The position numbers and the translations under genes are program-made. 64,000 bases of DNA from a virus (lineage: Duplodnaviria; Heunggongvirae; Uroviricota; Caudoviricetes): the IMG/VR virus record IMGVR_UViG_2778261505_000002; one strand, given 5' to 3'. How positions within the stretch are numbered: the first letter of the stretch is position 1; the number at the start of each line of letters is the position of its first letter. Below, piece by piece: positions 15,379 to 47,891 of this stretch. Under the pieces are notes generated by a model. That model was not told the origin of the DNA and made no database searches. It worked only from the letters and a program-made list of their open reading frames with translations.

Positions 15379-15433
15379 CCTGCTTCTGTATATATAAATA
15401 ATAAGTAACTTATTAAATATATACGGAAGCAGG
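15379..15433. repeat. 55 bp palindromic element, copy 1
   Basis: CCTGCTTCTGTATATATAAATAATAAGTAACTTATTAAATATATACGGAAGCAGG; near-identical copy at 47837-47891. Confidence 0.7.
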
Positions 15434-15468
15434 CTTCGTAAGACATGCCAGACCTAATTAAACACCCC

Positions 15469-15510
15469 AGAAAACAAGTTGGTTAGCAGATGCAGTAAAC
15501 AAGTTGTTTT
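15469..15510. promoter_or_regulatory. two tandem early-family dyads (AGAAAACAAGTTGGTT, GTAAACAAGTTGTTTT)
   Basis: Upstream of terminase small subunit gene. Confidence 0.45.
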
Positions 15511-15549
15511 AGAGCGCATGGACGCGCTCTGTGTGTTTTAGAGGGATCT

Positions 15550-16182
15550 ATGACGGTCGAAAAAGACGAGGTAAAAACTCGCCTGACACCAGCGGAGTGG
15601 GCCGAAGCTGAAGCCAAATGGACGTCAGGCGAATATACACTCTCAAAGCTGGAGGAAGAGTACGGCATTCGTCGTGAAACACTCTCCAGACATTTCAAAA
15701 AGCGAGGATTAGAGAAAGGCGCGGACTCTGTTGGGAAGATGGTTCGTGAGTCTCTTAAATCTGACGCAGAGCTTCGCGCTAAAGCCCGTGCGGAAAAGAT
15801 AGAAGAACGTCGTACACGTTATGACGGCTGGGCGTATGCGTTGGGGCAGATGGTGATGGTCGAAGTCACTACGGCCAAACGTGAGGGTAAGCCTTTAGGG
15901 GCGATTGAGGATTCTCTCAAGAGCTTACAGAGAGCCAGTAATACCCTTGCAAAATGCTTTGAAGTTTCGTCCAAAGCATTGGGCATGGATCATGCGGAAA
16001 ATGACGAGGAAGAAATTCCGAACCTGGTATTTGGTGAGCTTACGCCTTCCCAGGTGGCGAAATTACGTCAGGAAGACGACGAGCCTGAAATCATCGATGA
16101 CGAATTGCTTGAGACGTTGGAAGAAGAAGCTCTAAGCGAATTTGATGCGACAGATGATGGAAGTGAAGGGGAGGACGAATAA
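15550..16182 (+). CDS. terminase small subunit (putative)
   Basis: N-terminal HTH, acidic C-terminus, directly upstream of and overlapping TerL. Confidence 0.55.
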   Translation: MTVEKDEVKTRLTPAEWAEAEAKWTSGEYTLSKLEEEYGIRRETLSRHFKKRGLEKGADSVGKMVRESLKSDAELRAKARAEKIEERRTRYDGWAYALGQMVMVEVTTAKREGKPLGAIEDSLKSLQRASNTLAKCFEVSSKALGMDHAENDEEEIPNLVFGELTPSQVAKLRQEDDEPEIIDDELLETLEEEALSEFDATDDGSEGEDE

Positions 16183-17438
16183 TGGCAATCCCGTCCTCGC
16201 TCAGTCTTGTGCAACTGCATTCTGGACAGATGAAAGTCTTCCAGTCTCCGCATCGATTTAAAGTTGTTTGTGCTGGTCGACGCTGGGGAAAATCCCGGTT
16301 GTCGATCTCCACTATTATTCGTGCGGCGGCAAAGGAAAAAAAGCAAAGGGTCTGGTATGTCGCTCCTACTTACCAGATGGCTCGCCAGATTTTGTGGGAC
16401 GATCTACAGGAAGTTCTGCCTCGTAAGTGGGTTAGGAAAAAGAACGACACCACGATGACAATCGTGTTGAAGAACGGTTCGGAGATCGCCCTCAAAGGTG
16501 CTGATAAGCCTGACACTCTGCGCGGCGTAGCGTTGCATTTTGTAGTGCTTGATGAATTTCAGGATATGAAGGCTGACACCTGGTACAAGGTGTTACGACC
16601 TACTCTTTCATCGACACGCGGCGGTGCACTGATCATTGGTACGCCAAAAGGCTTCTCGGAATTTCACAAACTGTGGACTATAGGCCAGAACGTAGAGCTG
16701 CAAAGAAAGGGACAGTGGAAGAGCTGGCAGTTTGTAACTGCCGATTCTCCGTTTGTACCTACGGCGGAAATTGAAGCTGCTAAGAACGATATGGACCCCA
16801 AATCGTTCGCTCAGGAGTACCTGGCCAGCTTTGAGAACATGTCCGGGCGCGTTTACTACCCGTTCGATCGTAACGTGCATGTAAAACCGCTTCAGTTCAA
16901 CCCTCGGTTGCCTATATGGGTAGGGCAGGACTTCAACATTGACCCGATGTCTTCAGTAATTTTGCAACCTCAGCCAAATGGTGAGCTATGGGCAATTGAT
17001 GAATTGGTGCTCTTTTCCTCTAACACGGCAGAAGTTTGTGATGAGCTTGAGAGACGCTTCTGGCGCTGGAAATCACAGGTAACGGTATTTCCAGATCCGG
17101 CAGGTGCTTATCGCCAACATGCTCGTGGGGAGTCTGACGTAGACATATTCAAAGAGAAGGGATTCTTACGTGTCGATTATTCGAAAAAGCACCCGCCAAT
17201 TGCGGATCGTGTTAATGCTGTTAACCGAATGCTGATGTCCGCATCTGGAGATATCCGGCTGTATATCGATCCGAAGTGCAAGCATTTGATTGATTCACTG
17301 GAAAAAGTCATCTACAAGCCTGGAACACGAGATATGGATAAGACAGGTGGCATTGAGCATAGTGCAGACGCATTGGGCTATCCAGTACATCGTAGGTATC
17401 CAGTCAAAAACCGTGTTATTCTTGGTGGTTCTCGATAG
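16182..17438 (+). CDS. terminase large subunit
   Basis: Walker A-like CAGRRWGKS, Walker B VVLDEF, C-terminal nuclease-like region. Confidence 0.8.
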   Translation: MAIPSSLSLVQLHSGQMKVFQSPHRFKVVCAGRRWGKSRLSISTIIRAAAKEKKQRVWYVAPTYQMARQILWDDLQEVLPRKWVRKKNDTTMTIVLKNGSEIALKGADKPDTLRGVALHFVVLDEFQDMKADTWYKVLRPTLSSTRGGALIIGTPKGFSEFHKLWTIGQNVELQRKGQWKSWQFVTADSPFVPTAEIEAAKNDMDPKSFAQEYLASFENMSGRVYYPFDRNVHVKPLQFNPRLPIWVGQDFNIDPMSSVILQPQPNGELWAIDELVLFSSNTAEVCDELERRFWRWKSQVTVFPDPAGAYRQHARGESDVDIFKEKGFLRVDYSKKHPPIADRVNAVNRMLMSASGDIRLYIDPKCKHLIDSLEKVIYKPGTRDMDKTGGIEHSADALGYPVHRRYPVKNRVILGGSR

Positions 17439-17464
17439 GTAAGTAATTATCTAAGGTTATTCAA

Positions 17465-19039
17465 ATGGAATTGAACGACAAACAAATTAAGGATCTGGTG
17501 GCGCGACGCCACCCGGAATACGAAAAGAAAAAAGAACATTGGGACTTCCTCGCCAGCACTTACGCTGGCGGGCGTGGTTGGTTTACAGACAATATCTTTC
17601 GTTACTTTAAAGAGGGAGATCAGGAGTTTAAGGAGCGTGTTGAGCGTGCCTATCGCTTCAACCACACTCGTGAGGTGGTAAACCTCATCAACAAATATCT
17701 CTTTAAAGAAGACATTCATAGAAATATCGAAGAGGCACCAGAGCAGATCCGCAATTTCTGGAAACGTGCGACTCGCCAGAATGCCTCTATTGACTCATTT
17801 ATGGCCGCCATTGATTTGCAGTCGTCTATTTACGGTCGCATATGGGTTGTTGTCGATAGCACGATGAGTGGTGATGTTGAGTCAGTAGCTGACGAGAAAA
17901 AGAAAGATGCTCGCGCCTACGCCTACTGGATTTCACCTCAGCAAATGCTGGATGTGGCATGGGACGACGACGGGAATATGTTGTGGGCGTTAATTGTGGA
18001 AGTCGCTCGCGATGACGCAGATCCTTTTACTTCTACAGGTCAGGAATACCAACGTTATCGTCTGTGGACACAAAACGAGTGGTATCTGTTCCGTGAGGAA
18101 GTGAAGAAGGGCGCTGGTGGAGCAGGTCGCCGTCAGGCAAAAGTTATTTTAGAGGATAGCGGTGAGCATAATCTCGGCGTAGTTCCTGTATTTCCTGTTG
18201 ATTGTATTGGAGAAAGTGAATCACCGTATTTCAGCCCATCGTTGATCGATGATATCGCTTATCTTGATCGTGCGGTTGCAAACTATCTGTCAAACCTTGA
18301 TGCCATTATTCAGGATCAGACATTTAGCCAGTTGGCTATACCGGTACAGTCGCTTTTACCTGGTGATGAAAACCACACTAAAGTGCTTGAAATGGGCACA
18401 AAGCGAGTCTTCACCTACGATTCTGAAGGTGGAAACCAGCCGTTTTATCTGTCACCAGACCCGAAACAAGCTCAGATGATCATCACTACGATTAAGACGG
18501 TGATTAACGAAATCTACCATTCAGTTGGTGTAGCTGGTGAGCGAACGAAGCAGGACAACGCACAGGGAATCGATAATTCATCTGGTGCCGCAAAAATGTA
18601 TGACTTCCAGCGTGTAAATAGCTTGCTTGTCACAAAAGCAGAGCGTCTGGAAAGGGCTGAACGCCAAATCATGCTACTGGTTGCGAAATGGATGGGGGTA
18701 GATCTGGACGAAGACCACTCTTTAATTGCGTATCCAGAAAGTTTCGATATTCGTGGCCTTACTGATGAATTTTCTGTTGCCGAGAAACTGTCATTACTTC
18801 AGGCACCGGACTCTGTACGTCGTCACCAGATGGAAATGCTTATTGAGAAGATTTTCCCGAACATTACTGAGGCGATGAAAAAGGAATTTGATAAAGATCT
18901 CTTGAATTTTCCTCCAAAAAATGATCTAAATACCCTTGAAAATAAGTCAGTACTTACTTATGATCGTGGTGCAGCCCAAGAAAGCGGGCAAGATCAACCC
19001 CGAGGGAATGGGGACTCATCTACTCAAGAGAACGAGTGA
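17465..19039 (+). CDS. portal protein
   Basis: 524 aa ORF immediately after TerL; assignment by position and size. Confidence 0.7.
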   Translation: MELNDKQIKDLVARRHPEYEKKKEHWDFLASTYAGGRGWFTDNIFRYFKEGDQEFKERVERAYRFNHTREVVNLINKYLFKEDIHRNIEEAPEQIRNFWKRATRQNASIDSFMAAIDLQSSIYGRIWVVVDSTMSGDVESVADEKKKDARAYAYWISPQQMLDVAWDDDGNMLWALIVEVARDDADPFTSTGQEYQRYRLWTQNEWYLFREEVKKGAGGAGRRQAKVILEDSGEHNLGVVPVFPVDCIGESESPYFSPSLIDDIAYLDRAVANYLSNLDAIIQDQTFSQLAIPVQSLLPGDENHTKVLEMGTKRVFTYDSEGGNQPFYLSPDPKQAQMIITTIKTVINEIYHSVGVAGERTKQDNAQGIDNSSGAAKMYDFQRVNSLLVTKAERLERAERQIMLLVAKWMGVDLDEDHSLIAYPESFDIRGLTDEFSVAEKLSLLQAPDSVRRHQMEMLIEKIFPNITEAMKKEFDKDLLNFPPKNDLNTLENKSVLTYDRGAAQESGQDQPRGNGDSSTQENE

Positions 19040-19060
19040 TAAGTAACAAAAGGAATTTTT

Positions 19061-19948: not shown

Positions 19949-19973
19949 CATCTAAATCAAAGGGAATTGATAG

Positions 19974-36000: not shown

Positions 36001-37820
36001 CAATAAAGGCTGCAAGAGATGAAGCGGCGGCTCTTATTGCTAAGGAAAGCGAGGCTCGTGTTGAAGGTGATGCTGCAAACGCTAAACAACTGGAAGTGTT
36101 GCAGTCAACGGTAGAGGAAAGCTCCGCTGCCGTTGAAGAAATGAAAAAGACGGTTGCAGAGGTCGATCGTGCCAGTGCAGAACTGACTACGAACATTGAG
36201 GCTTTGGCCAAAACAAATATTGACCTGGCTCTTCGTCAAGATGAAGACCAGCACAAGCAGATGGTCAATAACGCGAAGATCGCAACAACACAGAAAACCT
36301 TTGCTGATGATATGTCTGCAATGGCCACGAAGGTTGAGGAAATTCGCGTAGAAATTGGCGAAGATATTAAGGCCAGTATTCTGGAAGAGTCCACCGCTCG
36401 TGCCGATGGCGATGAAGCGTTGGCAAAGCGTGTCACTCAGCTGCAATCTAAGTTTGAAGGAGATATCAGCGCGGCGATTAGTACAGAGCAGGAGGCTCGT
36501 ACATCTGCCGATGAAGCTCTGACGACACAAATCACTCAGCTTGAGTCGAAAGTAAGCAACGATATCGTCGCAGCTATTAAGGAAGAGCAAGAAGCCCGAG
36601 CAACGGAAGATTCGGCTCTGGCAAGCCAGATCACCCAACTTCAGGCAAAGGTTGATGATGATATTTCTGCTGCAATACGCAGTGAGCAGGAGGCCCGAGC
36701 AAGCGGGGACTCTGCGTTAGCCAAACAAATAAACCAGCTTCAGTCAAAGGTTGACGGTGATATATCCGCTGCCATCACTCAGGAGCAGGAGGCCAGAGCA
36801 AGTGCTGACCAGGCGCTCTCACGAGAAATTAACAGCCTGCGAGCACAAACCGGAACTGATATTGCCGCAGCGGTTGCTGTAGAGACAAAAGCAAGGACTG
36901 ATGCCGATAGTGCATTGTCTACCCAGATTACGTCTCTTACAGCAAAAGCTAATGATCTCAAGGCGTCTCTTGCCAGAGAAACAACGGCTCGTGCAGATGG
37001 TGATACCGCTTTAACAAAAGAGGTTTCAAGTTTAAAAGCACAGACAGCGAAAGATATTAGTGCGGCCGTTGCAGTTGAAACGCAGGCTCGAACTGATGCT
37101 GACTCGGCGTTGTCGTCTCAGATCACCAAGCTGACCTCTCAATACAAAGAGGATATTAAAGCGGCTGTAGCAACCGAAACGAAAACGCGTACAGAGCAAG
37201 ATGCTGCATTGGCGACTCAAATCACAAACTTAGAGTCTCAAACGGCAGCCAACATTTCCGCGGCGGTCACAACTGAAACGAAAGCGAGAACGCAGGCAGA
37301 TAATGCTCTGAGTGGGCGAATCGATACTCTGAAAGCAGAGGTGAATGGAAATACCGCGACAATTCAACAGCAGGCAACAGCTATTGCTGATACCAACAAA
37401 AAAGTGTCAACCGCGTGGACGTTGAAAATGGAGACTTCAACGAGCGGAGGGCAGAAGTATGTTGCCGGTATTGCGCTTGGTATTGACACCACTGGGCTAT
37501 CTCAGTTTTTGGTTCAGGCGGACAGGTTTGGTTTGGTCAACTCTGTTAACGGGAAGATCACAACGCCATTTGTTATCGAAAACAGTATCGCCTATATGAA
37601 TGGAGCGTATATCAAGGATGGCACAATCACCAATGCAAAAGTAGGCGATCTGCAATCTACCAATTTTGTTAGCGGTAGATCTGGATGGCGGTTCGGCAAA
37701 AATGGAACGCTTGAGATCAACGGTAATAGCGGCGGCAATGGGCGATTGGTTATAAATGGTCAGCGGATTGACGTTTATGACGATAACAACGTCTTACGAG
37801 TAAGAATTGGCCGTCTGTGA
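33096..37820 (+). CDS. central tail fibre / host specificity protein (lambda J-like)
   Basis: About 1574 aa after K and I; internal 33-aa coiled-coil repeat array. Confidence 0.8.
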   Translation: MEQFKKKKLPLLIAGAGGKKSKSSSRTPVEADDTVNSRAMAAILDLLGEGVIGGLVNGAKSIFIDDLPILNEDGSSNFSGITWDFRDGSQDQTPMAGFDFVETPKSVNIQLKKTHDVTVSIDNDEADRVRVIMKFPSLRSVDKSSGDTNGTTVKYKFQIANADATFSDVVAEGEKSVDITLTAKKTGVYYRSYELKLPKPGRAYKVRVIRLTDDNSSQYLYNDTWVDSIGEIVDTPMNYPNSALVGLKVNSEQFGSTMPSRSYLVRGIKIRVPSNYNEYTNTYVGVWDGTFKLLSSSNPAWILYDLLTNTRYGLGQFVSESMIDLGQLYQIGRYCDEEVDDGFGGKEKRFAINTQITSRQDAYRLIQDIAGAFRGMVFWAGGMVNIMQDSPSDPVMMFTNSNVKDGLFTYKGSARKDRPSVALVTYNNKEDGYKQNIEYVEDQDAMRRYGERKTEVVAFGCTSRGQAHRVGLWLLYTARMESDVITFTAGLDASFLMPGETVLIQNKYRAGKRNSGRIVEFTKNSITLDAPVSLAKSGSFIRILNQEGKIVERDVLETGENITKVTFSKALSSAETPVLNGVWTITEPDLEPMRVRIVNIAQGETSGSFDITAVENNPSKYEAIDNGATLIPQNTTVLDPTYSKPSNLQITEGTYLSSPGNLSVKLTATWEGKSPEYWISWRRSDENNVSNWQSARVTEEQYEIVNVAENGRYDFQLYAVSFNGKKTEIISTVYQVLGTMTPPDAPTSLTAVGDYRNVILNWVNPDSVDLDHINVYASQTNNLDTAKLIAESASTTFTHAGLGDSETWYYWVRASNKRGMLSPPNSNLGTEATTRDVLSFLTGKITSSELGQALLEDINSKVSQEAVDELNEHINQSVESLEGAVNDVKEDIAELDKQFSDNLAGFEIKFNERSDALENAQTELKGEVSATINKVNEAFEKIDATDAAIVEIENTVSEHDKALANTVEAIKAARDEAAALIAKESEARVEGDAANAKQLEVLQSTVEESSAAVEEMKKTVAEVDRASAELTTNIEALAKTNIDLALRQDEDQHKQMVNNAKIATTQKTFADDMSAMATKVEEIRVEIGEDIKASILEESTARADGDEALAKRVTQLQSKFEGDISAAISTEQEARTSADEALTTQITQLESKVSNDIVAAIKEEQEARATEDSALASQITQLQAKVDDDISAAIRSEQEARASGDSALAKQINQLQSKVDGDISAAITQEQEARASADQALSREINSLRAQTGTDIAAAVAVETKARTDADSALSTQITSLTAKANDLKASLARETTARADGDTALTKEVSSLKAQTAKDISAAVAVETQARTDADSALSSQITKLTSQYKEDIKAAVATETKTRTEQDAALATQITNLESQTAANISAAVTTETKARTQADNALSGRIDTLKAEVNGNTATIQQQATAIADTNKKVSTAWTLKMETSTSGGQKYVAGIALGIDTTGLSQFLVQADRFGLVNSVNGKITTPFVIENSIAYMNGAYIKDGTITNAKVGDLQSTNFVSGRSGWRFGKNGTLEINGNSGGNGRLVINGQRIDVYDDNNVLRVRIGRL
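36370..37340 (+). repeat. about ten tandem 99 bp coding repeats inside the J-like gene
   Basis: Repeated EQEARxSADxAL..QITQLQSKV units visible in the translation. Confidence 0.7.
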
Positions 37821-37913: not shown

Positions 37914-40900
37914 ATGTGGTACAGGGAAGGTACTATCACATTTACACAGGGCAGCAATACTCTGGTTGGGGCAGGGACAGCCTGGAACGTAACAGCTAAT
38001 GGTGTGTTGCCGGGGATGATCGTCATTGGCCCCGACAATAAGCTGTATGAGATCAAGCGCGTAACCAGTGATACGAACATTGTTCTCTCAGAACCTTATA
38101 CCGGCGAAACTCAGTCTGAAGTTCCGTGCCGAATCATTACGACCTATGAAGGCGACTTAACACAGTTTAGCGCGCGCTTTACTGCGCTAATGTCGCGTAT
38201 ATCGGCTGATTCCAAGTCCATACGCAGTTGGTTGACTGCGCTGGATGAGGTGACAATCGAGCGTGAAGACGGTACAGAAGTGACCGTTAAGCCGCTAATG
38301 CAGATCGTCAACGAGCACAACGAAAACGTTGAGTGGTATAAAAATAACACTGACGCGATTGATGCTGCTGGCGACAAAGCTCGTGAGGCGGCGGCCAGTG
38401 CTGCCGCAGCAGCAAAAAGCGCCAATGCCGCTGGAGAAAAAGCCTCTCAAGCGTCTCAAAGTGCATCCGCTGCGGCATCCTCACAAAGTGCCGCAAGTGC
38501 GAGTGCAACTGCTGCGAAAAAATCTGAAACGAATGCTGCAGCGTCACAAAAATCTGCAGCCACTTCTGCATCCACCGCGACCACGAAGGCGTCAGAAGCT
38601 GCCACCTCAGCCCGGGATGCGGCGGCCTCAAAAGAGGCAGCGAAATCATCAGAAACGAGCGCAGCCTCGAGCGCCAGTAATGCCGCTTCCTCGGCAACGG
38701 CGGCAGGAAATTCCGCGAAGGCGGCAAAAACGTCCGAGACGAACGCCAGGTCTTCTGAAACGGCAGCGGGACAGAGCGCCTCGGCTGCGGCAGGCTCAAA
38801 AACAGCGGCTGCGTCGTCTGCCAGTGCCGCGTCAACAAGTGCCGGGCAGGCCTCAGCCAGTGCCACCGCCGCCGGAAAATCGGCAGAAAGTGCCGCATCG
38901 TCTGCTTCAACTGCCACAACGAAGGCTGGCCAAGCCACTGAACAGGCCAGCGCAGCAGCGAGGTCTGCTTCCGCAGCGAAGACATCCGAAACGAACGCGA
39001 AAGCGTCGGAAACCCGTGCAGAATCCTCAAAAACGGCAGCCGCATCGTCCGCCAGTTCGGCGGCGTCATCGGCATCATCGGCGTCTGCTTCAAAAGATGA
39101 GGCGACCAGACAGGCGTCAGCAGCGAAGGGCAGCGCCACGACGGCATCCACGAAAGCAACAGAGGCGGCAGGCAGTGCGACGGCAGCATCTCAGAGCAAA
39201 ACTGCTGCTGAATCCGCTGCGACCCGTGCGGAAGCTGCTGCTGATCGTGCTGAAGAGATTGCCGGTGCAGTTGCGATGGAAGACGCAAGCCTTACAACTA
39301 AAGGTGTTGTGAAACTTAGCAGTGCTGTCGACAGCACCAGTGAATCGCTGGCCGCAACGCCAAAAGCAGTTAAAGCAGCCAATGACAATGCGAATAGCAG
39401 GGTGCCATCTAACCGAAAAGTTAACGGTAAAGCACTGACTGCGGATATCAAATTAACGCCGAAAGATATTGGTACTTTAAATTCAGTAACGATGTCTTTC
39501 TCTGGCGGGGCAGGGTGGTTCAAACTGGCTACGGTTACCATGCCACAAGCGAGTTCCATCGTTTACATCGCATTGATTGGTGGCGCTGGTTACAACGTCG
39601 GCTCCCCACATCAGGCAGGCATTTCAGAACTGGTTCTACGAGCAGGCAATGGAAACCCCAAAGGGATTACAGGTGCTTTGTGGAAGCGTACAGCTGTCGG
39701 ATTAACGAATTTCGCCTGGATCAACACATCCGGCGATACATATGATATTTACGTTGAGATTGGCAATTATGCGACTCGTGTAAATATCCATTGGGATTGT
39801 ACTGCAAATGCGACAGTTTCTATTTATACCTCGCCAACATATTCAGCGAGTAAGCCTTCCAGCGTTACCGATGGTGTTGTTTATACGATGTATAGCACAC
39901 ATCAGAAACCGACGCCGTTAGATATTGGAGCACTGCCAACAACCGGAGGAACAGTTTCAGGTCCGTTGTCTGTTACAGGTGGATTAACTGGTTCATTGAA
40001 TGGTAATGCAAGTACAGCCACGAAATTGCAGACGGCAAGATCTATCGGTGGAGTTGTTTTCGACGGTTCTGCAAATATTAACCTTCCAGGTGTAAACACT
40101 ACGGGTAATCAGAACACCACTGGTAATGCTGCAACTGCTACAAAACTTCAGACGGCAAGAACTATCGGCGGCGTGAGCTTTGATGGTACTGCGAATATTA
40201 ATTTGCCAGGTGTTAATACGACTGGTAATCAGAACACAACGGGCAACGCGGCTACTGCTACGAAGTTGCAGACTGCGCGTACTATCAATGGGGTGTCGTT
40301 TGACGGCTCGGCAAATATTGCCTTGTCGCCAGCAAATATAGGTTGCCCGGCATCTCCTACTGGTTGGTTAACTACAGGAAGTAATGGAGGAGCAATAACG
40401 ACAGCCCAGTTAGTTACTTTGTTGCAAAATAACGGGGCATTCAGTACGAAAGCATGGATCGCTCGTTGTGCATGGGCGTATGCGAATAGTGCATCCATAC
40501 CAGACAGTGAAACTGGTTGTGGCATTATTCCACTGGCGGGTGCTGTGATAGAAGTATTCAGCAATAATACCAACAATTACACCATTCGAATAACAACGGC
40601 CACTACGACAAATGTCTCTGGTGCACTCACTAATGCGGAGTTTATCTATGTGTCTAATGGCTCAAGTTATTCACCTGGATGGCGCAGAGCGTATAACACT
40701 AGAAACAAACCAACAGCTTCTGATGTAGGAGCATTACCGCTTTCAGGTGGCACATTATCTGGAGGGTTAACGTCTTCTGGTGAGATCGTTTCAAAATATG
40801 CAAATGGTTTCCGCATTGCTTACGGTAACTTTGGGTTCTTTATCCGTAATGATGGGGCGAACACATATTTCCTGCTAACAGCATCAGGAGACACATTAGG

Positions 40901-42065
40901 TTCATGGAACGGTTTGCGACCTATTACAATTAATAATACCAGCGGTGCTGTATCAATTGGTAATGGACTAAATGTGACTGGTGGCGTAAATGGTAGTTTG
41001 AACGGTAATGCTTCAACAGCTACGAAGTTGCAAACAGCGAGAAACATCAATGGTGTTAAGTTTGATGGTTCAGGCGATATCAATATTAATACATTGGTAT
41101 CTCGTGGCCGAGTTACGGCGTTAAGCGGCTCTACTCAAGGCACTGCTGGCATTCAAATGTATGAGGTGTACAACAATAGCTACCCGACCACGTATGGCAA
41201 CGTATTGCACATGAAAGGTGCGAGTGCTGCTGGTGAGGGCGAGTTGCTTATTGGCTGGAGTGGTACGAGCGGTGCACATGCGCCGGTTTTCATTCGCTCC
41301 CGAAGAGATTACACAGGTGCGGCATGGTCAGCGTGGGCGCAGGTATATACATCAAGGGACTCCATTCCTGGTGTGAATGCCACTGGTAATCAGAACACTA
41401 CTGGTAATGCCGCAACCGCCACAAAATTGCAGACAGCAAGGAAAATTGCTGGTGTGGCGTTTGATGGCTCTGCCGATATAACTTTGACTGCGGCTAACCT
41501 TAATGCTTACACGAAAACAGAGGTAGCAAACCTTCTAAGTTCCTATGCAAGCAGATCATCACTGACAGGCTATAGTGGCAACCTGGATATTGTTGCTGAA
41601 ACACTGGTTGTCAAATCAGGCGGTAGTGGAGGGTTTGCTATATGGGATATTGGCACAACTACTAGCGGTGCCAATATGTACATTGATCCAAACCCAGGTA
41701 TCAATACAGTTTGGCGTTCAACGTCTTCAAGGCGCTATAAAAAGGATATTGAAACATTACAAGATCGATATGCTGATGAACTTTTGTCATTAAGACCTGT
41801 TTGGTATCGTTCAATTTGTCGAGGTGACCGAAAGGATTGGGGGTATTACGGCCTTATTGCTGAAGAGGTTGGTGAGATTGCCCCGCAATATGTCCATTGG
41901 CGTGAACCAACAAATAATGATTCTCCAGAAGATATTTCCTCAAATGGTATGGTCGCTGAAGGAGTGATGTATGAGCGTTTGGTTGTACCACTCATTCATC
42001 ATATTCAGCAATTGACCAAAAGGGTTGAGGAGCTTGAAACGAAGTTAAATTCACCTAAAGAATAA
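37914..42065 (+). CDS. side tail fibre with C-terminal intramolecular chaperone (S74-like) domain
   Basis: Ala/Ser-rich low-complexity region, repeated GNAATATKLQTAR fibre units, C-terminal chaperone-like segment. Confidence 0.75.
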   Translation: MWYREGTITFTQGSNTLVGAGTAWNVTANGVLPGMIVIGPDNKLYEIKRVTSDTNIVLSEPYTGETQSEVPCRIITTYEGDLTQFSARFTALMSRISADSKSIRSWLTALDEVTIEREDGTEVTVKPLMQIVNEHNENVEWYKNNTDAIDAAGDKAREAAASAAAAAKSANAAGEKASQASQSASAAASSQSAASASATAAKKSETNAAASQKSAATSASTATTKASEAATSARDAAASKEAAKSSETSAASSASNAASSATAAGNSAKAAKTSETNARSSETAAGQSASAAAGSKTAAASSASAASTSAGQASASATAAGKSAESAASSASTATTKAGQATEQASAAARSASAAKTSETNAKASETRAESSKTAAASSASSAASSASSASASKDEATRQASAAKGSATTASTKATEAAGSATAASQSKTAAESAATRAEAAADRAEEIAGAVAMEDASLTTKGVVKLSSAVDSTSESLAATPKAVKAANDNANSRVPSNRKVNGKALTADIKLTPKDIGTLNSVTMSFSGGAGWFKLATVTMPQASSIVYIALIGGAGYNVGSPHQAGISELVLRAGNGNPKGITGALWKRTAVGLTNFAWINTSGDTYDIYVEIGNYATRVNIHWDCTANATVSIYTSPTYSASKPSSVTDGVVYTMYSTHQKPTPLDIGALPTTGGTVSGPLSVTGGLTGSLNGNASTATKLQTARSIGGVVFDGSANINLPGVNTTGNQNTTGNAATATKLQTARTIGGVSFDGTANINLPGVNTTGNQNTTGNAATATKLQTARTINGVSFDGSANIALSPANIGCPASPTGWLTTGSNGGAITTAQLVTLLQNNGAFSTKAWIARCAWAYANSASIPDSETGCGIIPLAGAVIEVFSNNTNNYTIRITTATTTNVSGALTNAEFIYVSNGSSYSPGWRRAYNTRNKPTASDVGALPLSGGTLSGGLTSSGEIVSKYANGFRIAYGNFGFFIRNDGANTYFLLTASGDTLGSWNGLRPITINNTSGAVSIGNGLNVTGGVNGSLNGNASTATKLQTARNINGVKFDGSGDININTLVSRGRVTALSGSTQGTAGIQMYEVYNNSYPTTYGNVLHMKGASAAGEGELLIGWSGTSGAHAPVFIRSRRDYTGAAWSAWAQVYTSRDSIPGVNATGNQNTTGNAATATKLQTARKIAGVAFDGSADITLTAANLNAYTKTEVANLLSSYASRSSLTGYSGNLDIVAETLVVKSGGSGGFAIWDIGTTTSGANMYIDPNPGINTVWRSTSSRRYKKDIETLQDRYADELLSLRPVWYRSICRGDRKDWGYYGLIAEEVGEIAPQYVHWREPTNNDSPEDISSNGMVAEGVMYERLVVPLIHHIQQLTKRVEELETKLNSPKE
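40007..40335 (+). repeat. about 120 bp direct coding repeats (tail-fibre repeat units)
   Basis: Three consecutive NxxTATKLQTAR-I-GV-FDGSANI units; further copies near 40990 and 41390. Confidence 0.65.
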
Positions 42066-43298: not shown

Positions 43299-43634
43299 AT
43301 GGAGGAAAACATGTCGAACGAGATGGCGGGCGTTACAACAGAGCAAGTTGAGCGTATTGCCGCGATCGTTGCTCGGGAGGTTGTTGGCAAATTAGGTAAA
43401 GAGCTACGTGAAGAAATTGGCCAGGAGGTCAATGATCAGCTGAAAACCTACTTTGGTGATATGACCCCGGCGCAACATAGTATTCAACACTCCAATCTGG
43501 ACAAACTCCTTAACCGGTTAGATTCCATCTCAAGTGGGTTCTTTGGCGGCATTGTTTCTAAAATAACGTCGTTCATTATTACCGCACTGCTTTTGGGGTT
43601 AGCCGCGTATGGCGTAAAAAGTGGACTGCAATAA
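43299..43634 (+). CDS. putative holin / lysis-associated membrane protein
   Basis: C-terminal transmembrane segment; first gene of lysis cassette; weak. Confidence 0.35.
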   Translation: MEENMSNEMAGVTTEQVERIAAIVAREVVGKLGKELREEIGQEVNDQLKTYFGDMTPAQHSIQHSNLDKLLNRLDSISSGFFGGIVSKITSFIITALLLGLAAYGVKSGLQ

Positions 43635-43647
43635 CAGGAGATCAAGG

Positions 43648-44340: not shown

Positions 44341-44341
44341 T

Positions 44342-44593
44342 ATGCTAGGCAGCCTGATGACAAAGCTAAAAGTTGCTTTGATTACGCTGGCTGCCGTTCT
44401 TTTCGTTCTTGTCGGCGCTTACACGATGGGCGGGAATGCGGCGCGACGAGCAATGGAAGAGAAGGCAAAACAGGAAGACAGAAAACGACTTCAAAGCACA
44501 GTGGAAGTGGTGAATGAGACGAGCAATAAAATACGTCAGAAAGATGCTTCTGCCGTTCATCGTGAGTTGTATGATAAGTGGGTGCGTCATTAA
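44342..44593 (+). CDS. inner-membrane spanin (Rz-like)
   Basis: N-terminal TM helix plus charged coiled-coil. Confidence 0.6.
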   Translation: MLGSLMTKLKVALITLAAVLFVLVGAYTMGGNAARRAMEEKAKQEDRKRLQSTVEVVNETSNKIRQKDASAVHRELYDKWVRH

Positions 44594-44729
44594 ACCACAA
44601 ACCGCCAGCGTATTGTTCTGCGATGGAGCTGGGCCTATCTATATCAGCAATAATGATGTGATGACCGAAGAAACCGAACGCCAAATCCTTTTTCACAATA
44701 CGATGGGAGAGAGAGTTTGCGGTTGGTGA
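44544..44729 (+). CDS. outer-membrane lipoprotein spanin (Rz1-like), overlapping Rz in the +1 frame
   Basis: Lipobox ISGC in MLLPFIVSCMISGC; starts inside the Rz gene and extends past its stop. Confidence 0.55.
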   Translation: MLLPFIVSCMISGCVIKPQTASVLFCDGAGPIYISNNDVMTEETERQILFHNTMGERVCGW

Positions 44730-44760
44730 TGCGAAGTTCCCCTCACTTGAGGGGAGTACA

Positions 44761-45282
44761 TTATTCTTCGAACAATTTTTCGATAGATTTTGTAGGATAG
44801 AACAAAGAACGCTCGTTGTTACCAACCAGCTGGATAAAGTCTAAACTTTTATAAAACGCCTTGGCTTTGTCATTTAACGCCTCAACGAAAAGTCCATGAA
44901 TGCCTACAGCAAGAGATGCATTGTACACAACGCGCATTGCATGTGTTACAAGCATTGAGCCAAATCCTTGACCTTGAAGGGACTTGTCCAAAGCCAGCCT
45001 ACCCAAAGTAACACTTGGAACATTCCGATAAGGTACCTTCTTTTGCTGGCTTCTTGAAGGTAAGGACTCCTTTTCAAAGCAGCTACCTGACAAAGTGTAA
45101 TACCCTAACACTTTTGGTCTGCCTTCTTTCGTGCAAAGCACATAAGCGCGAAGAATTTTTCCCTCATGCTGCCTTTTTAAGTGGTTGGTTAAAAAGGCAT
45201 TTAGTGATTCTTCACCGCAATCAAAACCATTCAAATCATAATCTTTCTCTCCAGAGAAAATTTCTATCTTTATATTATCCAC
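44761..45282 (-). CDS. GNAT-family acetyltransferase toxin (TacT/AtaT/KacT-type)
   Basis: GNAT motif A QGQGFGSMLV; 173 aa; immediately downstream of DUF1778-like gene. Confidence 0.75.
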   Translation of the reverse strand: MDNIKIEIFSGEKDYDLNGFDCGEESLNAFLTNHLKRQHEGKILRAYVLCTKEGRPKVLGYYTLSGSCFEKESLPSRSQQKKVPYRNVPSVTLGRLALDKSLQGQGFGSMLVTHAMRVVYNASLAVGIHGLFVEALNDKAKAFYKSLDFIQLVGNNERSLFYPTKSIEKLFEE

Positions 45283-45289
45283 GAGTAAA

Positions 45290-45559
45290 CTACTCCATGC
45301 TTTTCAGACGATCAGCAGCTCGTTTCAGCTTGTCGTTCGGTGCCGGAGGATTGCTTATAGCGTCCATAACCAGATTCCAGGATTCTTCATTCAGAACTAG
45401 TCTACGGTGTTGCTCTATAACTTTCACGGCACGTTCAGATGCACTGCTAACCATAAACTGAGTAATGCTCTGGTTAGACATTGCGGCAGCTTCCTCGATG
45501 ATGCTTTTATCGTCATCGGTTAATCTCAAATCGATGCGCTGCTTTTTTAGTGCTGACAT
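45290..45559 (-). CDS. RHH antitoxin (DUF1778/TacA-type)
   Basis: About 90 aa; ATG 45559 with GGAGG RBS; 8 bp from toxin start. Confidence 0.7.
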   Translation of the reverse strand: MSALKKQRIDLRLTDDDKSIIEEAAAMSNQSITQFMVSSASERAVKVIEQHRRLVLNEESWNLVMDAISNPPAPNDKLKRAADRLKSME

Positions 45560-45826
45560 GTATTCCTCCTGATGGCCGTGATGTAGGAAGGCCATCAATC
45601 TCCTCTGTTCAAACTGAGTTTTCGACTCAAAAATTACTTTAAAAGGCTATAGCCCATTACGTGTGCATTATCAAATTGTGTACGGCATATCACCGTACTT
45701 GTAATATAGAGGTCATTGTTACTTTTTTCAACAGACAAATACAAGCTATGTTTGCCAATTGTTAATCACAACCTACCATTTAACCTTTACACCGCAGCCG
45801 TAGGCATTTAGGCTATATCACATATA

Positions 45827-45842
45827 AGAAAACAAGTTGTTT
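45827..45842. promoter_or_regulatory. dyad GAAAACAAGTTGTTTC (early family)
   Basis: Upstream of parA-like gene. Confidence 0.45.
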
Positions 45843-45877
45843 CAGACGATAATTATATACGCAAAGGGAACTCTCCA

Positions 45878-46546
45878 ATGACCAAGATCTTTGTGGTTGG
45901 CGGCACAAAGGGCGGGCCTGGCAAATCCACCGTTGCCCAGCAAATTGCCGTTTGCCTGAAAGTCAAAAAGAAGAAGAAGGTTTATATTACCGATATAGAT
46001 ATTCAGCGCACGACAACGAGCTGGTGTGAAGACCGTCGACAGAACGAAGACCTTGAGCTGATTCCTTTTGCATACGTTCAGGATGACATCATTAAGCACC
46101 TAAAATCGCTTCAGGGTAGAGCTGAGTTTGTAGTGGTAGATGCTGGTGGCTTCGACTCCGAAATTCAGCGACAAGCGATGCTGATGGCTGACGTTATCAT
46201 TATCCCGCTGCGTCCTAAGCGTCGTGATTTGAAATCTTTACGTGACATCGATCCTATTATCGACAATGTTCGCAATGTAAACGATAAAGTGAAGGTCCGC
46301 GCGGTCATGAACCAGTGCCCGGCTTTGCCATCACAAGTGTCTCGCATTCTGGCGGCTAAAGAGATTGTTGAGACGTTTGGAATCGAGTCTGCGCCAGTCA
46401 ATCTATATAACCGCAACGTCTATGATGATGCGGAAGAGTCTGGTCGTTCTATCTTTGAAATGACCGGTAGCGAGCGCGACAAAAAGGCGGAAGCCGAGTT
46501 TGAAGAATTTGTAGATTATCTGTTGAGTCTGGAGGAAGAAGAATAA
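45878..46546 (+). CDS. ParA-family partition ATPase
   Basis: Deviant Walker A GGTKGGPGKST; 222 aa. Confidence 0.8.
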   Translation: MTKIFVVGGTKGGPGKSTVAQQIAVCLKVKKKKKVYITDIDIQRTTTSWCEDRRQNEDLELIPFAYVQDDIIKHLKSLQGRAEFVVVDAGGFDSEIQRQAMLMADVIIIPLRPKRRDLKSLRDIDPIIDNVRNVNDKVKVRAVMNQCPALPSQVSRILAAKEIVETFGIESAPVNLYNRNVYDDAEESGRSIFEMTGSERDKKAEAEFEEFVDYLLSLEEEE

Positions 46547-46905
46547 TGTCCATGAAAATGGGTGACCTAGCAAAGCGCAAAGAGCCTGATGCACCGGCTA
46601 AGAACACAACTCCTTTGCGCCAACCAGTCAGACCACAGGGACGCCCGACTCGTGGCAAAGAGAAAATTAAAAGCCGCACAATGTCACTGGAGGACGAATA
46701 CTTCGAACTGCTGGAGATGATGAAGTTCATCCCTCGCTTCGAGAAGTTCACTCGTTCTGACGTGATTCGAGCAGCCATTTTCCATCTGGCAGAGAAGTCA
46801 CCGCAGGAAATCGAGGACATCGTGAAATTGAATGAGGCGATCACCGCTGCCGATGTCACGATGCGTACCGATGAAATCAAACGAGAGTTGATGAAGAAAG
46901 GTTAA
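46546..46905 (+). CDS. small partition-associated DNA-binding protein (ParG/RHH-like, putative)
   Basis: 119 aa, basic N-terminus, translationally coupled to ParA. Confidence 0.5.
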   Translation: MSMKMGDLAKRKEPDAPAKNTTPLRQPVRPQGRPTRGKEKIKSRTMSLEDEYFELLEMMKFIPRFEKFTRSDVIRAAIFHLAEKSPQEIEDIVKLNEAITAADVTMRTDEIKRELMKKG

Positions 46906-46910
46906 AAATC

Positions 46911-46941
46911 ATGCATTGGCGCGTACATTGCGCCAATGCAT
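46911..46941. terminator. bidirectional hairpin between convergent genes
   Basis: ATGCATTGGCGC-GTACATT-GCGCCAATGCAT perfect 12 bp stem. Confidence 0.6.
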
Positions 46942-46957
46942 AACTACAGTGTCAGCT

Positions 46958-47725
46958 TTATGCCGCGCTAACACTATGTTCAGTCCTAACCACCCCAACC
47001 TTCACAAAAGGGCTACCGTAGCTTGGTGGCTTCTTGATTAATTTGCCTACATACAGTTTTCTAATATGCTCATCGGCTATTCTGCCAACAAATTCATAAC
47101 GTTTTGTGTCGGGGCCAAGAGCTATATCCCTTGTAAAGTACTGCTGAGAACCGGCTTTGACCCAGCATTCAATCTGATAAACTTCCATTATCAGCCCACC
47201 ATATGTAGCGTAGGCATATTTGAGATTCTCGTCTCTTGGAACCTTTGCCCATACGCCACGCGTAGCTTCATATAATGCCAGAGCGGACATTCCTGACTTG
47301 TAGGTGCTGTTTAGCAGGAAGGCAAGACCGGCGTGCTCAGGAGCAATTTCAGTTTCCTCTTGCAGCACTAAGTGATGGTAGGCGTCTAGTGATATTCTGC
47401 CCATCATGGAACCACTTCCTCGTACCTTATTCGTAAGCTCTCCGACCCCCATAAGGTCGATGCATGTCGCCTCAACAAGTTTGGCTGTGGTTTCATCCAT
47501 ACCATGACGAAGTATATCTATGCCTAATTTTTTATTAGCCAAAAGTTCTTTGATCCGCATGGATTTGGGAGAGTCATCGGGATACTTGATGTGATCGAGA
47601 CAACGAGTCGATTTGCCTTTTCCTATGTAAAACGGTCTTTTCATCTTGTCTTCTGTATCATAGAGACAGTAAACATAGTATTTAGCCTTATCCAATGATC
47701 TCGCGTATACCGATAAATCGTCCAT
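46958..47725 (-). CDS. GIY-YIG nuclease-domain protein (255 aa)
   Basis: N-terminal YVYCLYD...PFYIGKGK...R...H matches the GIY-YIG pattern; C-terminal region unassigned. Confidence 0.6.
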   Translation of the reverse strand: MDDLSVYARSLDKAKYYVYCLYDTEDKMKRPFYIGKGKSTRCLDHIKYPDDSPKSMRIKELLANKKLGIDILRHGMDETTAKLVEATCIDLMGVGELTNKVRGSGSMMGRISLDAYHHLVLQEETEIAPEHAGLAFLLNSTYKSGMSALALYEATRGVWAKVPRDENLKYAYATYGGLIMEVYQIECWVKAGSQQYFTRDIALGPDTKRYEFVGRIADEHIRKLYVGKLIKKPPSYGSPFVKVGVVRTEHSVSAA

Positions 47726-47836
47726 TATTGCATCTCTTTGCTACTGACTAATGCGTTCTATTTTACACATAAGTTTTTAATCAATTTAACAGGCTCAAAG
47801 TGTAGAGCTTCTGGGCGTCTAAGACGACAAGTTATG

Positions 47837-47891
47837 CCTGCTTCCGTATATATAAATAATAAGTAACTTATTAAATATATACGGAAGCAGG
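47837..47891. repeat. 55 bp palindromic element, copy 2
   Basis: Near-identical to 15379-15433. Confidence 0.7.

What the first reader, a model, noticed from the sequence alone, without database searches (positions are those of the whole stretch)
15379..47891. Twin 55 bp palindromic elements about 32 kb apart, each next to a partition-like locus
Near-identical palindromes (GC-clamped arms CCTGCTTC(C/T)GTATATAT around an AT-rich centre) at 15379-15433 and 47837-47891, read directly. Copy 1 follows the ParB-like operon; copy 2 lies about 900 bp past ParA/ParG in a divergent promoter region. No T-run follows either, so they are not standard terminators. They could be centromere-like sites, recombination sites or shared operators. 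The arms superficially recall a LexA half-site but lack a full CTGT-N8-ACAG box.
Basis: partly seen in the sequence, partly recalled or inferred. Interest (0 to 1): 0.5.

Follow-up and report, generated by a model that had tools for sequence, protein, structure and literature searches.

The report
Conserved palindromes at phage-plasmid module junctions
The two palindromes are real and belong to a previously undescribed set of three conserved ~100-bp palindromic elements at the junctions between the replication, accessory and virion-gene blocks of SSU5-type phage-plasmids (including Yersinia pestis pMT1); their function is unproven, and the best guess is protein-recognised hairpins that punctuate transcription.

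Summary
Observation confirmed: 15379-15433 and 47837-47891 are 54/55 identical palindromes (4 arm matches against 0.08 expected).

The window is an SSU5-like phage-plasmid, 99.8% identical to Escherichia phage CMS-2020a. A complete relative has exactly three such elements. Every element recovered from relatives maps to one of three syntenic junctions:
- after dam (outside this window);
- before terS (copy 1);
- before the helicase/primase block (copy 2).

One E. albertii plasmid carries a fourth copy inside a cargo insertion. All 391 matches in 5,426 complete E. coli genomes are on plasmids.

The constant part is CCTGCTTC-Y-G-TATA in inverted orientation around 33-41 bp of 78-92% A+T, usually with outer TCTGGG/CCCAGA repeats. 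The stems never co-vary.

The partition reading is weakened. The third site follows a Dam gene, the parA upstream region lacks the arm, and the DNA-reading strand of the ParG-like protein is also conserved in lineages that lack the palindrome. The arms are unrelated to the plasmid RepA iterons.

Best guess (0.3): factor-recognised terminator or processing hairpins between co-directional expression modules. Lytic origins are a close rival (0.22).

The parts
15379..15433 (.). Palindrome copy 1 (family Site II): arms CCTGCTTCTGTATATAT / ATATATACGGAAGCAGG around a 21-bp A+T centre
   Evidence: Read directly. Arm search gave 4 hits against 0.08 expected. nhmmer E = 5e-28.
15353..15459 (.). Full composite element at Site II, including the outer inverted repeat GGTCTGGGAG ... 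GCCAGACC. It starts 4 nt after the stop codon of the 88-aa winged-helix gene; the left arm starts 24 nt after that stop.
   Evidence: nhmmer envelope 15353-15459. Outer repeats conserved in E. coli, Salmonella and Klebsiella lineages. Fold.
47837..47891 (.). Palindrome copy 2 (family Site III): both arms have the consensus CCTGCTTCCGTATATAT
   Evidence: Read directly. nhmmer E = 3e-23.
47809..47919 (.). Full composite element at Site III, with TTCTGGGCG on the left, and TCTTTTAAAAGAC then CACCAGAAC on the right. The T-tract lies on the + strand immediately after the right arm.
   Evidence: T-tract present in 14 of 17 distinct contexts at this site.
15088..15354 (+). 88-aa winged-helix DNA-binding protein gene that ends just before copy 1. 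Neighbour, not shown to bind the element.
   Evidence: AF2 model, pLDDT 82, wHTH topology. Foldseek matches to MarR-type winged helices at E about 3e-4. The recognition helix is also conserved in lineages without the palindrome.
15550..16182 (+). terS-position gene (phrog_867, named 'DNA binding domain'; annotated as small terminase in Cyrano), first gene of the morphogenesis block, 117 nt after copy 1
   Evidence: TerL follows at 16182-17438.
47999..48748 (+). 249-aa all-helical protein (phrog_2500), first gene after copy 2, directly before the DnaB-like helicase (48792-50132) and primase (50142-51395)
46958..47725 (-). GIY-YIG (LEM-3-like) gene in the variable cargo slot to the left of copy 2
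   Evidence: Pfam PF22945, E = 5.5e-7. Unrelated genes occupy this slot in Cyrano and SSU5. Homology of many plasmids to the window begins at 47827-47849.
45878..46905 (+).
   Evidence: ParA/MipZ hits. RHH-like weak hit and conserved KSRTxSxEDE...TRSDVIRAA pattern.

Best explanation
The two palindromes belong to a three-member family of ~100-bp elements, with an occasional fourth copy. They mark the junctions between the three co-directionally transcribed blocks of SSU5-type phage-plasmids:
- Replication and nucleotide metabolism.
- Accessory genes and immunity.
- Virion, lysis and par genes.

My best reading is that they act on transcripts as long stem-loops placed right after the last gene of a block. 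They would serve as a 3'-end or terminator hairpin, an RNase III-type processing site, or an insulator.

Termination strength would be set site by site by the T-tract: strong at the copy 2 site, moderate at the third site, weak at copy 1. The invariant stem sequence (CCTGCTTC.GTATA) would be read by a phage-specific factor, such as an antiterminator or terminator-modulating protein in the manner of nut/put sites. That would let read-through from one block into the next be regulated.

Shown: the family, its positions, the conservation pattern and the T-tract distribution.

Inferred: that the elements are transcribed, that they terminate or are processed, and that a factor reads the stem.
For: 1. 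Position. All elements lie in intergenic DNA at block boundaries in a genome where nearly all genes are on one strand.

2. Spacing to genes. The left arm starts 22-24 nt after the stop codon of the upstream + strand gene in four contexts, although the upstream genes differ: window Site II, PhiR41_1 Site I, SSU5 Site III and Cyrano Site III. The next gene starts about 96-117 nt after the right arm.

3. T-tract. At least 5 T in the 8 nt after the right arm on the coding strand in 14 of 17 contexts at Site III, including lineages at 63-64% protein identity, and in 6 of 14 at Site I. The flank consensus TTWAARR|arm...arm|YYTTWAA resembles a bidirectional terminator.

4. Loop length is free. Arm-to-arm spacing is 33-41 bp with +/-2 TA slippage. 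A hairpin tolerates this; a rigid dimer on duplex DNA would not.

5. Distant relatives. At 48-49% identity of the neighbouring protein, the Morganella contig and an unnamed assembly (L139, L141) have an ordinary GC hairpin plus T-run at the Site III position. Its 5' arm (ATGGGAGCA) resembles the Raoultella variant right arm (ATGGGAAGCAGG). A distant Klebsiella lineage has unrelated hairpins at both sites.

6. Strand bias. Single-arm changes are mostly of the kind that leaves a G-U pair in a coding-strand transcript: 33 T-G against 13 C-A among unique elements. The counts are not independent, so this is weak.

7. Fourth copy. It sits at the head of an inserted toxin-antitoxin cassette, as a portable boundary element would.

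8. Fold. The upper stem is 17 bp plus 7 bp, long enough to be an RNase III substrate if transcribed (established knowledge of RNase III).
Against: The stem sequence is invariant where an ordinary terminator would drift and compensate. Arm positions 1-4 and 7 are identical in all 58 unique elements, and positions 5, 6, 8 and 10-14 deviate only through single-arm changes, with no double change anywhere. Position 9 is Watson-Crick in only 21 of 58, with no positive covariation. This needs an extra, unidentified sequence-reading factor and fits duplex-DNA half-sites equally well.

Copy 1 (Site II) almost never has a T-tract (1 of 14 contexts). A separate canonical terminator-like hairpin lies 77 nt downstream of it, at 15510-15531.

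There are no expression data, no candidate factor and no Rfam match.

The Raoultella Site II has one good arm, one decayed arm and a lone extra arm 41 nt away. That looks more like independent binding sites than a hairpin.
Confidence: 0.3

Rival explanations
1. Lytic-mode replication origins. An unknown initiator or helicase loader (possibly the phrog_2500 protein encoded right after copy 2) binds the inverted CCTGCTTC boxes. The 33-41-bp A+T spacer melts, and the phage DnaB-like helicase and primase are loaded. Three origins share the work on a 108-kb genome, as in herpes simplex virus (oriL plus two oriS) or the baculovirus hr regions.
For: The architecture is GC-rich inverted boxes flanking a 78-92% A+T spacer, with further outer boxes about 19-24 bp away. 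Box sequence is invariant without covariation, as expected for protein-read duplex sites.

Copy 2 lies directly upstream of an unknown protein, a DnaB helicase and a primase in every lineage.

The genome carries a T4-like replication and recombination set: gp32-like SSB, Rad50/SbcC-like ATPase plus exonuclease, RecA-like recombinase, ligase, RNase H and Pol III alpha/epsilon. T4 uses several origins (established knowledge).

The three sites are 32, 30 and 46 kb apart on the circle. A Chitinibacter relative has a different palindrome plus an A+T tract at the same place. The plasmid oriV is elsewhere, so a separate lytic origin is needed.
Against: No initiator was identified. The phrog_2500 model has no significant structural match.

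Variable box-to-box spacing is unusual for origins whose initiators cooperate.

This reading does not explain the T-tracts, the constant distance from the upstream stop codon, the fourth copy in a toxin-antitoxin insertion, or the ordinary terminators at the same place in the Morganella-type relatives.

GC skew shows no switch at either copy, although transcription dominates the skew here.
Confidence: 0.22
2. Shared operator or regulatory site on duplex DNA. A phage regulator binds the half-sites at the head of three or four operons and co-ordinates their expression.
For: Each copy lies upstream of an operon start: terS, the replication block, the block after dam, and the toxin-antitoxin cassette. 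Half-site-like conservation. Concerted evolution of the copies within a genome.
Against: Half-site spacing varies by up to 8 bp, and most regulators do not tolerate that. No sigma-70-like promoter lies in or next to the elements.

A different palindrome, AAACAA-N-TTGTTT, is a better operator candidate. It has 12 sites against 0.35 expected, sitting directly in front of terS, parA, the helicase gene and others.

The adjacent winged-helix protein keeps its recognition helix in lineages without the palindrome.
Confidence: 0.13
3. Dispersed centromere-like sites for the ParA / ParG-like (or ParB_N) proteins, as in the linear phage-plasmid N15. In N15, four palindromic SopB sites are scattered through the genome.
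For: N15 is a precedent (own knowledge: Ravin and Lane 1999; Grigoriev and Lobocka 2001). Copy 2 is the first conserved non-coding element downstream of the parA operon. The fourth copy in E. albertii lies next to a 'plasmid stabilization' toxin-antitoxin pair. The element occurs only on plasmids.
Against: Site I follows dam, not a par gene. The parA upstream region has no arm-like motif.

The partner protein is ribbon-helix-helix-like, a class that reads short repeats. Its DNA-reading strand is conserved in lineages lacking the palindrome.

Y. pestis pMT1 keeps copy 1 but has lost the small ParA module and uses a P1-type ParAB. Variable spacing argues against a single dimer site.
Confidence: 0.08
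4. Recombination junctions. The identical ~55-100-bp copies act mainly as substrates for homologous or enzyme-driven exchange, for example through the phage Rad50/Mre11-like nuclease cutting extruded hairpins. This would promote module swapping, cargo capture or recombination-dependent replication.
For: Homology between genomes breaks exactly at the left edge of copy 2 (window 47827-47849), with unrelated cargo to the left.

Variants in the centre track the genome rather than the site, which indicates gene conversion between copies. SSU5 has AAATACTAAGT at both sites, and one IMG/VR contig shares TATATTAAATAATAAAT between Sites I and II.

A fourth copy sits inside a cargo insertion. A homing-type GIY-YIG gene sits beside copy 2. 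The genome encodes SbcC/Rad50-like and RecA-like proteins.
Against: Gene order across the sites is very stable: 569 of 603 plasmids are contiguous across copy 1. No inversion or deletion between copies was seen.

Exchange may be a consequence of having conserved repeats rather than their function. It does not explain purifying selection on the arm sequence.
Confidence: 0.1
5. Packaging signal (cos or pac). Terminase recognises and cuts the palindrome before terS, which would explain why the SSU5 and Cyrano records end inside copy 1.
For: The SSU5 and Cyrano linear records are cut inside the Site II palindrome, one nucleotide apart. The site lies directly upstream of terS.
Against: Two further equivalent copies would give sub-genomic cuts. 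TerL is of the T4-like Terminase_6N type, more often headful.

Draft contigs from other sources also begin inside copies at Sites I and III (L051, L102, L104). That is what assemblers do at repeated palindromes, so the record ends are probably technical.
Confidence: 0.05

Closest known systems
Intrinsic (Rho-independent) bidirectional terminators and phage RNase III processing hairpins (for example the T7 R sites)
   Same: Intergenic, immediately after the stop codon of the last gene of a transcription unit. GC-rich stem base. T-tract after the stem at Site III and partly at Site I, with an A-tract before it. Long, nearly perfect stem with a lower stem and internal loops. Free loop length.
   Different: The stem sequence is fixed across three sites and across genera, with no compensatory change. 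Copy 1 lacks a T-tract. Stem plus loop (55 nt) is far larger than typical terminators. No experimental 3' ends are known.
Lambda nut / HK022 put sites (hairpins read by, or acting on, the transcription elongation complex)
   Same: A few copies per genome, at the heads of operons, with identical sequence between copies and across related phages, and sequence-specific rather than merely structural conservation.
   Different: nut boxB is a 15-nt hairpin and put is two stem-loops of about 70 nt. No N-like or Q-like protein was identified here. No sequence similarity. Function not tested.
Herpes simplex virus oriS/oriL and baculovirus homologous regions (hr)
   Same: Several dispersed copies per large dsDNA virus genome. 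A palindrome with an A+T centre flanked by inverted protein-binding boxes and further outer boxes. hr regions also mark sites of genome variation.
   Different: Eukaryotic viruses with unrelated proteins (UL9, IE-1). No initiator known here. Spacing is variable. This is a resemblance in architecture only.
Dispersed SopB-binding centromere palindromes of phage-plasmid N15
   Same: A phage-plasmid with several identical palindromes scattered through phage gene blocks at conserved positions.
   Different: N15 sites are compact 16-bp inverted repeats bound by a ParB-family SopB. Here the arms are 39 bp apart with variable spacing, the Par system is type Ib with an RHH partner, and tests against the par link were negative.
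LexA (SOS) box
   Same: The arm contains CTGTATAT (or CCGTATAT), which matches a LexA half-site.
   Different: There is no CTGT-N8-ACAG. The two CTGT/ACAG-like motifs are about 35-39 bp apart, and one arm usually reads CCGT or ACGG.

Membership tests
Intrinsic terminator | GC-rich hairpin immediately followed by a T/U-tract on the transcribed strand | tested here: inconclusive
   Hairpin present at all sites. T-tract of at least 5 of 8 nt in 14 of 17 contexts at Site III (copy 2: TCTTTTAA), 6 of 14 at Site I and 1 of 14 at Site II (copy 1: CTTCGTAA). The simple scan did not call them because loop and stem exceed its limits.
Intrinsic terminator | Structure conserved through compensatory change, sequence free | tested here: not met
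   No compensatory change at arm positions 1-8 or 10-14 in 58 unique elements. Position 9 is unpaired or wobble in 37 of 58.
Plasmid centromere (parS/parC/parH type) for the adjacent Par system | Site lies beside, or shares motifs with, the par operon control region and is read by the centromere-binding protein | tested here: not met
   No arm-like sequence upstream of parA. The third copy is next to dam. The reading strand of the RHH partner is conserved where the palindrome is absent. Binding itself is not testable here.
Plasmid centromere | Confers ParA/ParB-dependent stability in cis | not testable with these tools
   Needs a stabilisation assay.
Iteron-type plasmid origin (RepA) | Repeats matching the RepA iterons next to repA | tested here: not met
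   The RepA iterons are ACCGCTGACAGCATAC, 12 copies flanking repA in PhiR41_1 at 103.9-105.6 kb. They are unrelated to the arms and lie outside the window.
Viral lytic origin of the inverted-box plus A+T-spacer type | Inverted initiator boxes flanking an easily melted spacer | tested here: met
   CCTGCTTC/GAAGCAGG flank 33-41 bp of 78-92% A+T.
Viral lytic origin of the inverted-box plus A+T-spacer type | Identified initiator that binds the boxes; replication starts there | not testable with these tools
   The neighbouring phrog_2500 protein has no recognisable fold relatives.
LexA box | CTGT-N8-ACAG 16-bp palindrome | tested here: not met
   Read directly. Spacing between the CTGT-like and ACAG-like motifs is about 35-39 bp.
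Host repetitive extragenic elements or MITEs (REP, ERIC and similar) | Many copies in host chromosomes; presence/absence polymorphism; target-site duplications | tested here: not met
   0 chromosomal matches in 5,426 complete E. coli genomes, against 391 plasmid matches at 1-3 per genome. Positions are syntenic. No flanking direct repeats were seen.
cos/pac packaging site | Unique site at virion DNA ends or at the start of the packaging series | tested here: inconclusive
   The SSU5 and Cyrano records end in copy 1. However, there are three equivalent copies, and other draft contigs also break at Sites I and III. Virion ends are not available.
Known RNA families (Rfam 15) | Match to a curated covariance model | tested here: not met
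   Only three tRNAs reach gathering score in the window. Around both copies there were only sub-threshold hits to generic hairpin (microRNA) models.

The most novel reading that the evidence does not exclude
SSU5-type phage-plasmids, including S. Typhi pHCM2-like and Y. pestis pMT1-like plasmids, use a dedicated cis-element read by an unidentified phage protein.

The element is three identical palindromes that divide the circular, one-directional genome into replication, accessory and virion arcs. It would work either as a trio of lytic origins (HSV-ori or baculovirus-hr-like, new for phages of this type) or as regulated read-through gates that time early, middle and late expression around the circle. 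In both cases the elements would also serve as the seams at which modules and cargo are exchanged.
Probability: 0.3. Interest if true: 0.65.

Novelty: new variant of a known kind. Interest (0 to 1): 0.42.

Why it matters
SSU5-type phage-plasmids are common in clinical Enterobacterales. 603 PLSDB plasmids carry the copy 1 region, and 255 of 5,426 complete E. coli genomes carry the palindrome. These plasmids carry resistance and virulence cargo, with Y. pestis pMT1 as a degenerate member. How their lytic replication and temporal gene expression are organised is essentially unknown.

A conserved, easily recognised three-site element at the module seams gives a concrete handle. It can be deleted, recoded or used as bait to find its binding factor. 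It marks where cargo is swapped. It also explains why short-read assemblies and some deposited phage records break at these points. If it turns out to be only a set of terminators, the practical value is limited to annotation and assembly.

Tried and rejected
- Plasmid oriV. Rejected: the RepA iterons are a different 16-mer located elsewhere.
- LexA box. Rejected on spacing.
- Host REP/ERIC/MITE-type repeat. Rejected: no chromosomal copies, and the positions are syntenic.
- Promoters for a phage single-subunit RNA polymerase, prompted by the resemblance of TATACGGAAG and TATGGGAGCA to T7/SP6 start regions. Not supported: none of the nine large ORFs scanned has an RNA polymerase domain.
- T4 MotA-box middle promoter (TGCTTC). 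No -10 element at the required distance, judged by reading the sequence.
- Telomere-resolution site. Three copies on a circular plasmid make it implausible, and no protelomerase turned up among the proteins scanned.
- The 88-aa winged-helix protein as the binder. Its recognition helix does not co-vary with presence of the palindrome.
- The ParG-like RHH protein as the binder. Same result.
- RNA strand bias of wobble pairs. Present (33 against 13) but not independent, so not decisive.
- A multi-copy motif in the Morganella-type lineage. The pattern scan found only one relevant locus; the other hits were chance.
- Literature. Searches for SSU5 together with palindromes, origins or termini found no description of these elements. 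One possibly relevant 2026 preprint could not be opened.
- The afdb50 fold library was unavailable.

Full report
**1.

The window contains CCTGCTTCTGTATATAT-AAATAATAAGTAACTTATTAA-ATATATACGGAAGCAGG at 15379-15433. The same 55 bp, with C instead of T at arm position 9, lies at 47837-47891.

- With up to three mismatches allowed, the 17-nt arm occurs four times in 64 kb, all in these two palindromes. Shuffles give 0.08 expected.
- Both regions fold far better than shuffles, with z about -7.5.
- The symmetry continues outside the 55 bp. Weaker outer inverted repeats (TCTGGG ... CCCAGA) lie about 17-24 bp beyond each arm, so the real unit is about 100-110 bp.

**2. What the window is**

It is an SSU5-like phage-plasmid. 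It is 99.8% identical to Escherichia phage CMS-2020a. It is close to PhiR41_1 and Cyrano, about 82-87% identical to Salmonella phage SSU5 and about 79% to Klebsiella relatives.

- Between the two copies lie the terminase, head, tail, tail-fibre and lysis genes, then a small ParA operon.
- Copy 1 sits between an 88-aa winged-helix gene and terS.
- Copy 2 sits before an unknown 249-aa protein (phrog_2500), a DnaB-like helicase and a primase.

**3. The pair is two thirds of a trio**

I built a profile from 68 distinct elements recovered from IMG/VR. In the complete 107,998-bp PhiR41_1 genome it finds exactly three elements:
- 13.4 kb, after a Dam methylase gene (Site I);
- 45.6 kb, equivalent to window copy 1 (Site II);
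- 75.1 kb, equivalent to window copy 2 (Site III).

Site I lies about 17 kb before the start of this window.

All 118 elements oriented by their flanking genes, from viral contigs, species-representative genomes and annotated records, map to one of these three syntenic positions. This holds down to 61-65% identity of the flanking proteins.

- The elements occur only on plasmids: 391 places in 255 of 5,426 complete E. coli genomes, none chromosomal, 1-3 per genome.
- 603 PLSDB plasmids from Escherichia, Klebsiella, Enterobacter, Yersinia, Salmonella, Citrobacter and Cronobacter carry the Site II region.
- Y. pestis pMT1 keeps only Site II, having lost the modules that hold the other two.
- One E. 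albertii plasmid has a fourth copy. It lies inside a 2.2-kb insertion that also brings a RelE/ParE toxin-antitoxin pair.

**4. Anatomy and conservation**

Across 58 unique elements, arm positions 1-4 and 7 are identical in every copy. Positions 5, 6, 8 and 10-14 deviate only in a few elements and only in one arm, so the consensus is CCTGCTTC.GTATA.

Position 9 is C or T in each arm independently. The pair counts are T-G 26, C-G 17, C-A 11 and T-A 4, so only 21 of 58 are Watson-Crick and there is no positive covariation. No compensatory change occurs anywhere in the stem.

- The distance between the invariant 8-mers is 33-41 bp (mode 39, often shifted by +/-2 through TA slippage). This spacer is 78-92% A+T.
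- Variants in the centre track the genome rather than the site. SSU5 has AAATACTAAGT at Sites II and III, and E. coli lineages have AAATAATAAGT at both. The copies therefore evolve in concert.
- The left arm begins 22-24 nt after the stop codon of the upstream gene in four contexts with four different upstream genes.
- The next gene begins about 96-117 nt after the right arm.

**5.

Partition:
- Site I is next to dam, not a par gene.
- The parA upstream region has no arm-like motif.
- The 119-aa partner of ParA is ribbon-helix-helix-like. Its DNA-reading strand (KSRTxSxEDE) is conserved in Morganella- and Klebsiella-type relatives that lack the CCTGCTTC palindrome.
- The ParB_N proteins before copy 1 belong to a five-gene operon that always precedes terS, and some TerS homologues carry a ParB_N domain.

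I therefore rate the centromere reading low, although the dispersed SopB sites of N15 are a real precedent (own knowledge).

TCTTTT follows the right arm, and a T-tract of at least 5 in 8 is present in 14 of 17 distinct Site III contexts. The figures are 6 of 14 at Site I and only 1 of 14 at Site II.

Plasmid origin: the RepA iterons are ACCGCTGACAGCATAC, 12 copies around repA, and are unrelated to the arms.

**6. Distant relatives**

- At 59% identity of the phrog_2500 protein (Raoultella), the arms are CCTGCTYCYCAT. Site II there has one good arm, one decayed arm and a lone arm 41 nt downstream.
- At 47-49% identity the CCTGCTTC arms are gone:
  - The Morganella contig and an unnamed assembly (L139, L141) have an ordinary GC hairpin plus T-run at the Site III position.
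  - A 102-kb Klebsiella plasmid has two unrelated hairpins at Sites II and III.
  - The Xenorhabdus contig has an A+T-rich tract ending in TTATGGGAGCAAGGC at Site II, resembling the Morganella Site III motif.
- A Chitinibacter relative at 27% has a different palindrome followed by an A+T tract.

So some hairpin at these junctions is general. The shared, frozen sequence is specific to the SSU5/pHCM2/pMT1/Klebsiella group.

**7. Candidate binders**

- The 88-aa protein is a MarR-like winged helix. Its recognition helix does not change where the palindrome is lost.
- No single-subunit RNA polymerase domain was found among the large ORFs scanned.
- The genome carries a T4-like replication and recombination gene set.

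**8. Interpretation**

Three facts must be explained together:
- placement exactly at the seams of three co-directional gene blocks, hard against the upstream stop codon;
- free spacer length and a tolerated mismatch at position 9, but a frozen stem sequence;
- T-tracts that are site-specific.

I favour, at 0.3, hairpins acting on transcripts (termination, processing or insulation), with a stem read by an unidentified phage factor that could gate read-through, in the manner of nut/put sites.

Multiple lytic origins are nearly as likely (0.22). They would have inverted boxes around a meltable spacer, as in HSV oriS/oriL or the baculovirus hr regions. This reading best explains the frozen box sequence and the position of copy 2 before the helicase block.

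Lesser rivals:
- a shared operator (0.13). This is weakened by the variable spacing and by a better operator candidate, AAACAA-N-TTGTTT, with 12 sites against 0.35 expected;
- recombination seams (0.1). This is supported by homology breaks exactly at the left edge of copy 2 and by variable cargo beside it, but gene order is stable;
- centromeres (0.08);
- a packaging site (0.05). The SSU5 and Cyrano records end inside copy 1, but other draft contigs also break at Sites I and III, which points to an assembly artefact.

**9. Novelty and score**

I found no description of these elements in the searchable literature. No feature is annotated under them in any record examined, and Rfam has no match.

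Whichever function is right, the kind is known (hairpin terminator or gate, viral origin, or operator). I therefore class this as a new variant of a known kind, of moderate interest. It is a conserved, unexplained three-site cis-element in a clinically widespread phage-plasmid family, and its function is directly testable.

Noticed in passing
window 1531, 1582, 3022, 4205, 4689, 5592, 6356, 15472, 15497, 45830, 48760, 59290: A second palindrome, AAACAA-N-TTGTTT, occurs 12 times against 0.35 expected by chance. All copies are intergenic and lie roughly 15-60 nt before start codons, where I checked (terS, parA, DnaB-like helicase, CobT-like gene, and a cluster in the accessory/immunity region). 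It looks like a global operator or promoter-linked site.
   Followed up: partly
window 15510-15541: Canonical terminator-like hairpin (TAGAGCGC-ATGGAC-GCGCTCTG followed by TGTGTTTT) directly before the terS ribosome-binding site, 77 nt after copy 1. It suggests attenuation or antitermination control of the late operon.
   Followed up: no
window 46958-47725 (-): A free-standing GIY-YIG (LEM-3-like) nuclease gene occupies the variable slot left of copy 2. Cyrano and SSU5 have unrelated genes there, and many plasmids share homology only from the palindrome rightwards. It may be a homing-type endonuclease inserted beside a highly conserved target.
   Followed up: partly
window 12163-15354: A conserved five-gene operon always precedes terS, even in distant lineages: two ParB_N-domain proteins, an ABC-type ATPase, a 296-aa protein and an 88-aa winged-helix protein. 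Some TerS homologues are fused to a ParB_N domain. This suggests a packaging or DNA-processing role rather than partition.
   Followed up: partly
window 47999-48748: The 249-aa all-helical protein (phrog_2500) just before the DnaB-like helicase models with high confidence but has no significant fold or sequence relatives. By position it is a candidate initiator or helicase loader.
   Followed up: yes
window 55700-55943: Three tandem tRNA genes reach Rfam gathering scores of 75.5, 41.6 and 74.9 bits.
   Followed up: no
L177 (E. albertii plasmid CP043239.1) 4804-7035; equivalent to an insertion between window 6143 and 6190: A fourth copy of the palindromic element lies inside a 2.2-kb insertion, together with a RelE/ParE toxin-antitoxin pair and two small genes.
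   Followed up: partly
L131 3924-5589 (PhiR41_1 103.9-105.6 kb; outside the window): Twelve 16-20-bp iterons (ACCGCTGACAGCATAC) flank repA in a P1-like arrangement. This is the plasmid-mode origin.
   Followed up: yes
SSU5 NC_018843 and Cyrano OV696614 record ends; IMG/VR loci L051, L102, L104: Deposited linear records and several draft contigs begin or end inside these palindromes. This is probably an assembly break at a repeated palindrome rather than a true genome end.
   Followed up: partly
window 40002-41479 and 36585-36833: Tandem 120-nt and 99-nt coding repeats lie within the large tail and tail-fibre genes.
   Followed up: no
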